This document shows, in pieces, positions 15,001 through 18,000 of a stretch of DNA of 64,000 nt. The stretch comes from Escherichia coli (GTDB lineage Bacteria > Pseudomonadota > Gammaproteobacteria > Enterobacterales > Enterobacteriaceae), in the NCBI RefSeq assembly GCF_041886205.1, contig NZ_CP169029.1; one strand, 5' to 3'. A program made the position numbers. Position 1 is the stretch's first letter; each line of letters starts with the position of its first letter.

Positions 15001-18000
15001 AAACGGGTTAGCCAGGCTTCAGACAGTTATTACTATCGGGCGAAGCAGGCAGTTTATCGTGCTGATGACTACGTCCACGAAAAACCCTGGCAAGGAATTG
15101 GTGTGGGCGCGGCCGTCGGGCTGGTACTAGGACTGTTGCTGGCACGCCGTTAAAACCTCCCTACACCGGGGTACTGCATTTTTTTTGTAGTACCCCGTAT
15201 AATGTGAGGCTTTTAACAGGGAGAGGTCCGCGTGCAATCACTTACTACGGCGCTGGAAAATCTACTGCGCCATTTGTCGCAAGAGATTCCAGCGATACCC
15301 GGCATTCGGGTTATCGATATTCCTTTCCCTCTCAAAGACGCTTTTGATGCCTTGAGCTGGCTGGCCAGTCAGCAAACATACCCGCAATTCTACTGGCAAC
15401 AACGTAATGGTGATGAAGAAGCTGCCGTCCTGGGCGCGATTACCCGTTTTACGTCGTTGGACCAGGCACAACGTTTTCTTCGTCAGCACCCGGAACACGC
15501 CGACTTACGCATCTGGGGGCTGAATGCATTTGATCCATCGCAGGGTAATTTACTTTTACCACGCCTGGAATGGCGACGCTGTGGCGGTAAAGCCACGCTG
15601 CGGCTGACGCTATTCAGCGAAAGCTCCCTTCAGCACGATGCGATTAAAGCAAGAGAATTTATCGCCACACTGGTGAGTATTAAACCCTTGCCTGGGTTAC
15701 ATTTAACCACCACGCGAGAACAACACTGGCCGGACAAAACGGGCTGGACGCAATTAATCGAACTGGCAACGAAAACCATCGCCGAAGGTGAGCTCGACAA
15801 AGTGGTGCTCGCTCGGGCAACTGACCTGCATTTCGCAAGTCCGGTCAACGCGGCGGCGATGATGGCTGCCAGTCGTCGACTGAATCTGAATTGCTACCAT
15901 TTTTACATGGCCTTTGATGGCGAAAATGCTTTTCTTGGCTCTTCACCGGAACGGTTATGGCGGCGGCGTGACAAAGCGCTGCGTACTGAAGCGCTGGCGG
16001 GAACAGTAGCAAATCATCCTGATGATAAGCAGGCGCAGCAGTTAGGAGAGTGGCTGATGGCGGATGATAAAAACCAGCGCGAGAACATGCTGGTGGTGGA
16101 AGATATCTGCCAACGATTACAGGCCGATACCCAGACGCTGGATGTTTTACCGCCGCAGGTACTGCGTCTGCGTAAAGTGCAGCATCTTCGCCGCTGTATC
16201 TGGACTTCACTCAACAAAGCGGATGATGTGATCTGTTTACATCAGTTGCAGCCAACGGCAGCAGTTGCTGGCTTACCGCGCGATCTGGCGCGACAGTTTA
16301 TCGCCCGTCACGAACCGTTCACCCGAGAATGGTACGCCGGTTCTGCGGGCTATCTCTCATTACAACAAAGCGAATTCTGCGTTTCCCTGCGCTCAGCAAA
16401 AATTAGCGGCAATGTCGTGCGATTATATGCTGGCGCGGGCATTGTCCGTGGTTCCGACCCCGAGCAAGAGTGGCAGGAAATCGACAACAAAGCGGCAGGG
16501 CTGCGTACTTTATTACAAATGGAATAGTAATGAGTCGCATCATTACCGATTCATATCAATAATCTATTTTTGTAGCTCCTTATACTTAGCCGCAATATTG
16601 ATACCGGACAAACTCATGTCAGTAAGCGCATTTAACCGACGCTGGGCGGCGGTCATTCTGGAAGCATTAACGCGTCACGGCGTCAGACACATCTGTATCG
16701 CCCCAGGCTCGCGTTCTACACCGTTAACGTTAGCGGCGGCGGAGAATTCCGCATTCATTCACCACACCCATTTCGATGAGCGTGGACTGGGGCATCTGGC
16801 GCTGGGGCTGGCGAAAGTCAGCAAGCAGCCGGTGGCGGTGATTGTGACCTCCGGCACGGCGGTGGCAAATCTCTATCCGGCACTGATTGAAGCCGGGTTA
16901 ACCGGAGAAAAACTGATTCTCTTAACCGCCGATCGCCCGCCGGAGCTAATTGACTGCGGCGCGAATCAGGCAATTCGCCAGCCGGGAATGTTCGCCTCTC
17001 ACCCCACGCACAGTATTTCATTGCCGCGCCCGACCCAGGATATCCCCGCACGTTGGCTGGTTTCTACCATCGACCACGCTCTCGGTACGCTTCATGCGGG
17101 GGGAGTCCATATCAACTGCCCGTTTGCTGAACCGCTGTATGGCGAAATGGACGATACCGGGCTTAGCTGGCAACAGCGTCTGGGTGACTGGTGGCAGGAC
17201 GACAAACCGTGGCTGCGTGAAGCGCCTCGTCTGGAAAGTGAAAAACAGCGCGACTGGTTCTTCTGGCGACAAAAGCGCGGCGTGGTGGTTGCCGGGCGCA
17301 TGAGTGCGGAAGAGGGCAAAAAAGTTGCCCTGTGGGCGCAAACTCTTGGCTGGCCGCTGATTGGCGATGTGCTGTCACAAACCGGGCAGCCGCTGCCGTG
17401 TGCCGATCTTTGGTTAGGCAATGCCAAAGCGACCAGCGAGCTGCAGCAGGCGCAAATTGTGGTGCAACTGGGAAGCAGCCTGACGGGGAAACGGCTCCTG
17501 CAATGGCAGGCAAGCTGTGAACCCGAAGAGTACTGGATTGTTGATGACATTGAAGGGCGACTTGATCCGGCACACCATCGCGGACGTCGCTTAATTGCCA
17601 ATATTGCCGACTGGCTGGAGCTGCATCCGGCAGAAAAACGCCAGCCCTGGTGCGTTGAAATCCCGCGCCTGGCGGAACAGGCAATGCAGGCGGTTATTGC
17701 CCGCCGTGATGCGTTTGGCGAAGCGCAACTGGCGCATCGCATCAGCGACTATCTGCCTGAACAGGGGCAATTGTTTGTTGGTAACAGCCTGGTGGTACGT
17801 CTGATTGATGCGCTTTCGCAACTTCCGGCAGGTTACCCGGTGTACAGCAACCGAGGGGCCAGCGGTATCGACGGACTGCTTTCGACCGCCGCAGGCGTTC
17901 AGCGGGCAAGCGGCAAACCGACGCTGGCGATTGTGGGCGATCTCTCCGCACTTTACGATCTCAACGCGCTGGCGTTATTGCGTCAGGTTTCTGCGCCGCT

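What the first reader, a model, noticed from the sequence alone, without database searches (positions are those of the whole stretch)
15154..15231. U-loop hairpin and perfect TATAAT between elaB and menF
An 11-bp stem whose loop is eight consecutive T (15168-15197) is followed immediately by TATAAT (15199-15204), the SD GGGAGAGG and the menF GTG start. The T run sits in the loop rather than after the stem, so this is not a standard terminator. It may pause or terminate elaB transcription while overlapping the menF promoter, a compact arrangement that could couple the two units.
Basis: seen in the sequence. Interest (0 to 1): 0.2.

Follow-up and report, generated by a model that had tools for sequence, protein, structure and literature searches.

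The report
elaB terminator hairpin abutting menF promoter
A strong RNA hairpin just after the E. coli elaB gene marks where elaB transcripts end, and the TATAAT right behind it is the working start signal for the menaquinone (menF) operon; both ends were already mapped in published K-12 datasets, so this is a tidy but ordinary gene boundary.

Summary
A 12-bp hairpin (15167-15197, loop of seven U, dG -20.9 kcal/mol) sits 14 nt after the elaB stop codon and is followed at once by TATAAT.

The 141 nt checked around the spacer (15120-15260) match E. coli K-12 MG1655 exactly, so published K-12 maps apply.
- Term-seq (Adams 2021) puts a strong elaB 3' end at window 15201. That is 4 nt past the stem and inside the TATAAT.
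- SMRT-Cappable-seq (Yan 2018) finds the same 3' end for elaA-elaB transcripts. Of 26 informative reads, 10 stop there and 16 read through.
- The same dataset places the menF-menD(-menH) start site at window 15211, at the normal distance from the TATAAT.

This is a leaky, non-canonical terminator (tail UAUAAUGU) fused to a sigma-70 promoter.

The eight-T loop itself is not conserved. The stem, the -10 element and the T-run at the start site are conserved across about 37 enterobacterial spacers.

One extra lead came up. A CCUCCCU box just 5' of the hairpin is complementary to the menF ribosome-binding site and co-varies with it in related genera. It could silence menF translation on read-through transcripts. 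Support is good in relatives and weak in E. coli.

Overall this is ordinary and of low interest.

The parts
14848..15153 (+). elaB coding sequence (101 aa); stop codon TAA at 15151-15153
   Evidence: ORF list; RefSeq annotation of identical DNA
15155..15162 (+). ACCUCCCU box complementary to the menF Shine-Dalgarno sequence. It lies upstream of the menF start site, so it is present only in read-through RNA. Candidate anti-SD element.
   Evidence: MFE pairs it with 15219-15227. Complementarity is kept and co-varies across genera. Weak in E. coli itself.
15167..15197 (+). Hairpin: left arm 15167-15178, loop 15179-15185 (U7), right arm 15186-15197; dG -20.9 kcal/mol
   Evidence: The lower stem GGGGUACU/AGUACCCC is conserved in 36 related spacers.
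15201..15201 (+). Mapped RNA 3' end of elaB / elaA-elaB transcripts (K-12 2380674). The RNA ends ...CCCCG-UAUA.
   Evidence: Term-seq, Adams 2021 Supp file 1; SMRT-Cappable-seq, Yan 2018 Supp Data 1
15198..15203 (+). -10 hexamer TATAAT of the menF promoter. It also forms the first 6 nt of the A/U-rich tail after the hairpin.
   Evidence: T, A, T, A and the final T are invariant in 37 spacers. The start site lies 8 nt after its last base.
15174..15179 (+). Probable weak -35 region (CTGCAT, 18-nt spacer, 2/6 match), lying in the left arm and loop of the hairpin
   Evidence: Inference. Left-arm bases 15170-15177 are invariant or nearly so, while their pairing partners vary. No 9/12 promoter was called by the scan.
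15211..15214 (+). menF transcription start site (15211 = K-12 2380664), the first base of a conserved T-run
   Evidence: SMRT-Cappable-seq Supp Data 2; TTT at 15211-15213 invariant
15218..15227 (+). menF Shine-Dalgarno region AGGGAGAGGU
15232..16527 (+). menF coding sequence (GTG start), first gene of menFDHBCE

Best explanation
The hairpin forms the 3' end of elaB (and elaA-elaB) transcripts. The TATAAT that abuts it is the -10 element of the sigma-70 promoter of menFDHBCE.

Shown:
- RNAs from upstream end at 15201, 4 nt past the stem.
- A separate primary transcript starts at 15211.
- Some upstream transcripts read through into menF.

Inferred:
- The 3' end is made by leaky intrinsic (Rho-independent) termination. 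The GC-rich 12-bp stem forms in the RNA exit channel while the RNA:DNA hybrid is the weak, almost all-A/U segment UAUAAUGU. The same A/T-rich bases thus serve once as the terminator tail and once as the promoter's melting element.
- The T-run in the loop is promoter spacer / -35-region DNA, not a functional U-loop.
- The poor U-tract explains why only about 40% of polymerases stop.
For: - The hairpin is strong and rare.
- The checked 141 nt (15120-15260) match K-12.
- Term-seq 3' end at K-12 2380674 = window 15201, in all three growth-condition sheets, about 4-fold higher at OD 2.0.
- SMRT-Cappable-seq (M9): start site 2381565 to end 2380674. 30 reads at the start site, 10 end at the site, 16 pass it, 0 end within 50 bp downstream.
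- Start site 2380664 = window 15211 for menF-menD and menF-menD-menH.
- Canonical terminators in the same Term-seq table also end 4-8 nt past their stems, for example dapD and the rpsT terminator.
- No Rho-termination region is listed between K-12 2380200 and 2380799.
- Hairpin, TATAnT and the T-run at the start site are conserved in 37 spacers from about 15 genera.
- The 96-bp spacer is better conserved across 5,421 E. coli genomes than the flanking genes.
- PmenFDHBCE reporter fusions were built from this upstream region and gave luciferase read-outs in Salmonella and E. cloacae. An E. coli fusion was also built, but its activity is not given in the passages read.
Against: - The tail has only 4 U in 8 nt. 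The T-weight is 1.64 and the classical discriminant is negative (-22, against +31 to +33 for the canonical terminators at the same position in Cedecea and Enterobacter sp. R1). That formula is recalled from memory.
- The simple terminator scan does not call the site.
- There are no in vitro termination data, and no data from exonuclease or Rho mutants. A 3' end 4 nt past a stable stem is also what exonucleolytic trimming would leave.
- The -35 region is poor (2/6), and no sigma-factor assignment was tested.
- The stem is conserved in sequence, with almost no compensatory changes in its lower part. RNA-level selection is therefore not proven by covariation.
- The read numbers for read-through are small (26 informative reads). 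The method's stated aim of full-length long reads may under-count the short terminated RNA (my assumption).
Confidence: 0.68

Rival explanations
1. The hairpin is a 3' exonuclease barrier rather than a terminator. Polymerases from elaB run into menF and stop further downstream, by Rho or other means. PNPase and RNase II then trim the RNA back to the stable stem, leaving the 15201 end and stabilising elaB mRNA.
For: - The tail is not U-rich, and the classical terminator score is negative.
- Most reads from the elaA start site pass the site, and their median extension is only 199 nt. So there are downstream ends that could be trimmed.
- Adams et al. state that most non-terminator 3' ends are likely processing products and that Rho-generated ends are unstable.
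Against: - No Rho-termination region is reported for K-12 2380200-2380799.
- No reads end within 50 bp downstream of the site, so no trimming intermediates are seen.
- The 4-nt overhang equals that of bona fide intrinsic terminators in the same dataset.
- The hybrid at the release point is 7/8 A/U, which favours release.
Confidence: 0.2
2. The inverted repeat GGGGTACTGC-N8-GCAGTACCCC is mainly a DNA operator for a dimeric regulator of the menF promoter. It spans about -44 to -14 relative to the start site. Its RNA hairpin would then be a by-product. This reading does not exclude termination.
For: - The arms are conserved in sequence rather than by compensatory change. The left arm is more conserved than pairing requires.
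- menF promoter fusions respond to sdiA in relatives: about 105-fold sdiA-dependent decrease in E. cloacae, and 1.8- to 2.7-fold increase in Salmonella.
Against: - The right arm is degraded in Pluralibacter, Kosakonia, Phytobacter and Leclercia while the left arm persists. That fits a -35 region better than a symmetric operator.
- No sdiA effect was found in E. coli.
- From memory, the arms do not resemble the FNR, ArcA, CRP or SdiA boxes.
- The RNA 3' end at the hairpin is a fact either way.
Confidence: 0.1
3. The real stop signal is the small upstream hairpin (15155-15172) followed by the T8 run. On this reading the large hairpin is incidental.
For: The consensus scan lists ACCTCCCTACACCGGGGT plus the tail ACTGCATTTT as terminator-like.
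Against: - That stem is very weak (dG -4.4), lies 6 nt from the T-run, and scores -81.
- The only elaB 3' end in the curated Term-seq tables is at 15201, not at 15180-15190.
Confidence: 0.02

Closest known systems
Rho-independent (intrinsic) terminators with imperfect U-tracts
   Same: GC-rich stem-loop directly after a stop codon. The in vivo RNA 3' end lies a few nt past the stem. Efficiency is partial. No Rho signal was reported.
   Different: The tail is UAUAAUGU (4 U of 8) and the long T-run sits in the loop. Classical scoring rejects it. Rho-independence has not been shown in vitro.
Sigma-70 promoters driven by a consensus -10 with a weak -35
   Same: Perfect TATAAT. The start site is 8 nt after the hexamer. 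The conservation pattern (T, A ... final T) is typical of -10 elements.
   Different: The -35 matches 2/6, and there is no TG extension (CCG precedes the hexamer). The promoter DNA upstream of -14 is also the terminator stem of the preceding gene.
frd terminator / ampC attenuator of E. coli (overlapping transcription units; recalled from memory, Jaurin and Grundstrom 1981-82)
   Same: One hairpin serves at the boundary of two adjacent, same-strand transcription units in a very short spacer.
   Different: There the hairpin lies downstream of the second gene's start site and attenuates it. Here the hairpin lies upstream of the menF start site (15211), so menF's own transcripts do not contain it.
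Fold-back inhibition of read-through transcripts in IS10/IS50 (recalled from memory: Davis, Simons and Kleckner 1985)
   Same: A sequence found only in transcripts that start outside the unit is complementary to the ribosome-binding site. It could block translation of read-through RNA, while the unit's own transcript lacks it.
   Different: This would be a chromosomal biosynthetic operon, not a transposase. Pairing in E. coli is short (6 + 3 bp with a bulge) and modelling predicts no occlusion. No translation data exist.
Stem-loops that protect 3' ends after Rho-dependent termination (Dar and Sorek 2018)
   Same: A stable stem with a short non-U overhang at an mRNA 3' end.
   Different: No bicyclomycin-sensitive region is reported here. 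The supplementary tables of that paper were not available to check.

Membership tests
Intrinsic (Rho-independent) terminator | Stable GC-rich stem-loop in the nascent RNA | tested here: met
   12-bp stem, five G-C pairs at its base, dG -20.9, z -7.3
Intrinsic (Rho-independent) terminator | U-rich tract of about 7-9 nt immediately 3' of the stem | tested here: not met
   The tail UAUAAUGU has 4 U of 8. T-weight 1.64, discriminant -22. Not called by the scan.
Intrinsic (Rho-independent) terminator | RNA 3' ends in vivo a few nt downstream of the stem | tested here: met
   Published Term-seq and SMRT-Cappable-seq ends at window 15201, read from supplementary tables
Intrinsic (Rho-independent) terminator | Termination without Rho (in vitro with pure RNA polymerase; insensitive to bicyclomycin) | tested here: inconclusive
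   No Rho-termination region is listed for K-12 2380200-2380799. That screen has limited sensitivity, and no in vitro data were found.
Sigma-70 promoter | -10 hexamer close to TATAAT | tested here: met
   6/6 at 15198-15203; TATAnT invariant in 37 spacers
Sigma-70 promoter | -35 hexamer close to TTGACA at 16-18 nt | tested here: not met
   The best candidates, CTGCAT and TGCATT, match 2/6. No promoter was called by the scan.
Sigma-70 promoter | Primary (triphosphate) 5' end about 7 nt downstream of the -10 | tested here: met
   Cap-enriched full-length reads start at K-12 2380664 = window 15211
Anti-SD fold-back insulation of read-through transcripts (IS10-like) | A complement of the ribosome-binding site located upstream of the gene's own start site | tested here: met
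   ACCUCCCU at 15155-15162 against AGGGAGAGGU at 15218-15227; start site at 15211
Anti-SD fold-back insulation of read-through transcripts (IS10-like) | Pairing maintained by selection (conservation and covariation) | tested here: inconclusive
   Mean duplex energy with a sequence's own partner is -15.2, against -13.4 +/- 0.3 for permuted partners (0 of 20,000 permutations). The outer helix shows A-U to G-C swaps. The duplex beats random 17-mers at p < 0.01 in 21 of 37 sequences, but only at about p = 0.1 in Escherichia and Citrobacter.
Anti-SD fold-back insulation of read-through transcripts (IS10-like) | Lower translation of the gene from read-through RNA than from its own transcript | not testable with these tools
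   Modelling only. Probability that the SD is unpaired, read-through versus own transcript: 0.52 vs 0.56 in E. coli, 0.09 vs 0.50 in Salmonella, 0.01 vs 0.36 in Silvania.
Any curated RNA family (Rfam 15) | Covariance-model match | tested here: not met
   Only three chance-level snoRNA hits (E >= 1.5) in 14000-16500, none at the hairpin

The most novel reading that the evidence does not exclude
The conserved CCUCCCU box just 5' of the hairpin is an anti-Shine-Dalgarno element. It lies upstream of the menF start site, so it is present only in RNAs that read through from elaB. There it pairs with the menF ribosome-binding site, across the terminator hairpin. menF would then not be translated from stress-induced (RpoS-dependent, from memory) elaB read-through transcripts, and those transcripts might be ended early (median read-through of only 199 nt). 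This would be translational insulation backing up a leaky terminator, conserved across Enterobacteriaceae.
Probability: 0.3. Interest if true: 0.45.

Novelty: already known. Interest (0 to 1): 0.2.

Why it matters
It shows how a 78-bp spacer holds both the end of one transcription unit and the start of the next. The A/T-rich -10 element doubles as the weak hybrid of a terminator, and the terminator's left arm and loop double as upstream promoter DNA.

For annotation, it is a worked example of a functional 3'-end-forming hairpin that classical terminator predictors reject.

The practical consequence is small. Both RNA ends are already in public K-12 datasets. The one part that could teach something new is the possible anti-SD insulation of menF from elaB read-through.

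Tried and rejected
- **Rfam scan of 14000-16500.** Nothing relevant.
- **Consensus promoter/terminator scan.** It misses both the hairpin and the promoter, because of the poor U-tail and the poor -35.
- **U8 loop as a functional feature.** Rejected. The loop is TTTTTGTT or TTTTTCTT in other Escherichia and quite different in other genera. Only two T (15181-15182) are conserved.
- **Small upstream hairpin plus T8 as the real terminator.** Rejected.
- **Bidirectional terminator.** Rejected. The minus-strand hairpin is weaker (-15.3), is followed by GUGUAGGG, and has no convergent gene.
- **Roadblock by RNA polymerase bound at the menF promoter as the source of the 3' end.** Rejected by geometry; my inference is that collision ends would lie well upstream of 15201.
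- **Supplementary tables sought without result.** Thomason 2015 is not held. Dar and Sorek 2018, the 3'-UTR valves paper and the reiterative-initiation paper have no supplements held. The TERMITe supplements have no elaB or menF entry.
- **Literature searches on elaB + menF.** Nothing on this spacer.
- **Control set without menF.** ElaB-family loci with no menF downstream (Pantoea, Erwinia and others) show ordinary hairpins and no CCUCCC box directly 5' of the hairpin. Several may be paralogues, so this is only a weak negative control.

Full report
**What is in the sequence**

The window carries rbn (-), elaA (+), elaB (+, 14848-15153), menF (+, GTG at 15232) and menD. The elaB-menF spacer is 78 nt.

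Reading it directly gives, in order:
- TAA stop at 15151-15153
- ACCUCCCU at 15155-15162
- an inverted repeat, C15167-A15178 / T15186-G15197, with the T-run 15179-15186 between and partly inside the arms
- TATAAT at 15198-15203
- GTGAGGC
- TTTT at 15211-14
- AACAGGGAGAGGTCCGC
- GTG at 15232

Otherwise the description is accurate.

As RNA the repeat forms a 12-bp stem with one G.U pair and a loop of seven U. dG is -20.9 kcal/mol and z is -7.3; none of 200 shuffles folds as well. Only 17 sites on both strands of the 64-kb window reach -18 kcal/mol for a 31-nt window. The hairpin is therefore not a chance feature. TATAAT alone is not enriched, with 14 found against 23.8 expected.

**Identity with K-12 and what published maps show**

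Window 15120-15260 is identical to E. coli K-12 MG1655 on the minus strand, apart from the unaligned end bases. The conversion is K-12 coordinate = 2395875 - window coordinate. RefSeq annotates nothing in the spacer.

Adams et al. 2021 (PMC7815308, Supplementary file 1) list a Term-seq 3' end at 2380674 (-). It is classed 'primary' for elaB, with 54,112 reads at LB OD 0.4 and 221,851 at OD 2.0, and elaB occurs three times in the file, one per growth-condition sheet. This is window 15201, so the RNA ends ...GUAGUACCCCG-UAUA, 4 nt past the stem and inside the TATAAT. In the same table canonical terminators end 4-8 nt past their stems.

Their list of bicyclomycin-sensitive (Rho) regions has no entry between K-12 2380200 and 2380799. 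'Primary' means within 50 bp downstream of a gene.

Yan et al. 2018 (PMC6131387) give three relevant entries:
- In M9, the same end, 2380674, for transcripts starting at 2381565 (elaA-elaB). There are 30 reads at the start site. 10 end at the site, 16 pass it by at least 50 bp, and none end within 50 bp. The median extension is 199 nt. The site is flagged 'novelTTS'.
- A start site at 2380664 for menF-menD and menF-menD-menH.
- A read-through elaA-elaB-menF transcript.

K-12 2380664 is window 15211, 8 nt after the last T of the TATAAT.

**Comparison across species**

A scan of one genome per species with ElaB returned 80 loci. In 36 of them, from about 15 genera, elaB is followed by menF with the same fused arrangement. 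These genera include Escherichia, Citrobacter, Salmonella, Enterobacter, Lelliottia, Leclercia, Kosakonia, Phytobacter, Silvania, Yokenella, Trabulsiella, Pluralibacter and others.

In the 37-row alignment the invariant positions are:
- GGTACT (15170-75)
- ACCC (15192-95)
- T, A, T, A and the final T of the -10
- TTT at the start site (15211-13)
- the GTG start codon

The -10 pattern (TATAnT, with TATACT and TATAGT as variants) is what a sigma-70 -10 element shows.

The loop is variable and is not always a T-run. The lower stem never varies, so it offers no covariation evidence. Left-arm bases A15173, C15174 and T15175 are invariant while their partners vary or mispair. In Pluralibacter, Kosakonia, Phytobacter and Leclercia the right arm is degraded. 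I infer that the left arm and loop are also constrained as the -35 region of the menF promoter: CTGCAT with an 18-nt spacer matches only 2/6, but it keeps the T and G.

More distant genera (Cedecea, Enterobacter sp. R1, Franconibacter) have a canonical terminator, a stem plus T9 in the first two. About 15-20 nt further on they have the same ACGTATAAT...GGGGTTTTTA promoter.

Within E. coli the 96-bp spacer has at most one mismatch to the window in 4,042 of 5,421 genomes. The surrounding 1.4 kb is at least 99% identical in only 9.

**Mechanism**

Shown:
- elaB transcripts end at the hairpin.
- menF has its own start site 10 nt further on.
- Part of the upstream transcription reads through.

Inferred: the end is made by leaky intrinsic termination. 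The stem is strong and GC-rich at its base. The 8 nt after it, UAUAAUGU, give a hybrid that is 7/8 A/U. The same A/T-rich DNA would therefore serve as terminator tail and as -10 element.

Against this, the tail has only 4 U. The classical discriminant (formula recalled from memory) is -22, against +31 and +33 for the canonical terminators of Cedecea and Enterobacter sp. R1.

The main rival is exonucleolytic trimming of longer RNAs back to the stem. It cannot be excluded without in vitro or mutant data. The absence of a reported Rho region and of ends within 50 bp downstream argues weakly against it.

A DNA-operator reading of the dyad is possible but secondary. sdiA-dependent control of PmenFDHBCE is reported for E. 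cloacae and Salmonella and not for E. coli.

**An additional lead: a possible anti-SD box**

The MFE of the spacer pairs ACCUCCCU (15155-62) with the menF Shine-Dalgarno AGGGAGAGGU (15218-27), enclosing the hairpin. The box lies upstream of the menF start site, so only read-through RNA contains it.

In the other genera both sides change together:

| Genus | Box | SD side |
|---|---|---|
| Enterobacter | AACC.CUCCCU | AGGGAG.GGUU |
| Lelliottia | GACC... | ...GGUC |
| Kosakonia | AAUCCCCUCCC | GGGAGGGGGUU |
| Pluralibacter | CUCCCCCG | CGGGGGAG |
| Leclercia | CUUCUCCC | GGGAGAAG |
| Silvania | ACCUUUCCCUGC | GCGGGGAGAGGU |

Quantitative tests:
- A sequence's own duplex averages -15.2 kcal/mol, against -13.4 +/- 0.3 for permuted partners. 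None of 20,000 permutations reaches the observed value.
- On the alignment, 78.8% of cells pair, against 40-51% for slid structures. The covariation score is 0.126, against at most 0.072. The outer helix shows A-U to G-C double changes.
- Against random genomic 17-mers the pairing is unusual (p < 0.01) in 21 of 37 sequences. In Escherichia and Citrobacter it is only about p = 0.1, and the box is degraded in E. albertii and one Escherichia sp..
- Modelled SD accessibility in read-through versus own transcript is 0.09 vs 0.50 in Salmonella and 0.01 vs 0.36 in Silvania, but 0.52 vs 0.56 in E. coli.

The sequences are phylogenetically related, so the permutation results overstate independence. I rate this as a plausible translational insulation of menF from elaB read-through. 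It is analogous to IS10 fold-back inhibition (recalled from memory). It is well supported in relatives, weak in this window's species, and untested experimentally.

**Verdict**

The feature is a non-canonical, leaky 3'-end-forming hairpin fused to a sigma-70 promoter. Both RNA ends were already tabulated in public K-12 datasets, though no paper I found discusses the spacer. It is ordinary biology in a compact layout, and interest is low. The only part with some novelty is the candidate anti-SD box.

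Noticed in passing
window 15155-15162 with 15218-15227: A CCUCCCU box just 5' of the hairpin is complementary to the menF Shine-Dalgarno and co-varies with it across genera. It would be present only in read-through transcripts, making it a possible anti-SD insulation element. Support is weak in E. coli.
   Followed up: partly
window 15211-15214: The mapped menF start site is the first base of a conserved T-run (TTT invariant in 37 spacers). Promoters that initiate in TTT are reported to undergo reiterative (slippage) initiation (PMC12709180). menF is not mentioned in the main text of that paper.
   Followed up: partly
window 11896-11926: A perfect 13-bp hairpin with a 4-nt gap between the arms (dG -25.5 / -24.8 on the two strands). 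It is the most stable 31-mer in the window and sits near AT-rich palindromic sequence at 11521-11713.
   Followed up: no
window 58840-58870, 52044-52074, 50510-50540: REP-like GCCGGATG...CATCCGGC hairpins are among the most stable local structures in the window.
   Followed up: no
window 16594 (K-12 2379281): SMRT-Cappable-seq lists a further start site in the menF-menD spacer for menD-menH-menB transcripts. The men cluster therefore has at least one internal promoter.
   Followed up: no
window 15149-15159 with 15206-15217: In a longer-context fold of the read-through RNA, GUUAAAACCUC (which includes the elaB stop codon) pairs with GAGGCUUUUAAC around the hairpin. This complementarity is specific to Escherichia, which has the short spacer, and is not conserved elsewhere.
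   Followed up: partly
L058 (Cedecea davisae) 1783-1913; L012 (Enterobacter sp. R1) 1786-1914: The orthologous spacers carry a canonical terminator (9-bp stem plus T9) followed by the same menF promoter. The left arm of that terminator (CUUACCC) is also complementary to their menF SD (GGGUGAG). The SD-complement may therefore predate the fused hairpin.
   Followed up: partly
window 14300-15700: This 1.4-kb stretch is 100% identical to E. coli PT62 (pigeon), but at least 99% identical to only 9 of 5,422 matching records. The window therefore comes from a comparatively uncommon lineage, even though the spacer itself is the common K-12 allele.
   Followed up: no
L002 1352-1435 (E. coli AVS0935): A divergent E. 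coli has a single change in the spacer, A15189 to C. It breaks the U15175-A15189 pair (dG -16.6 instead of -20.9) and has no compensating change.
   Followed up: partly
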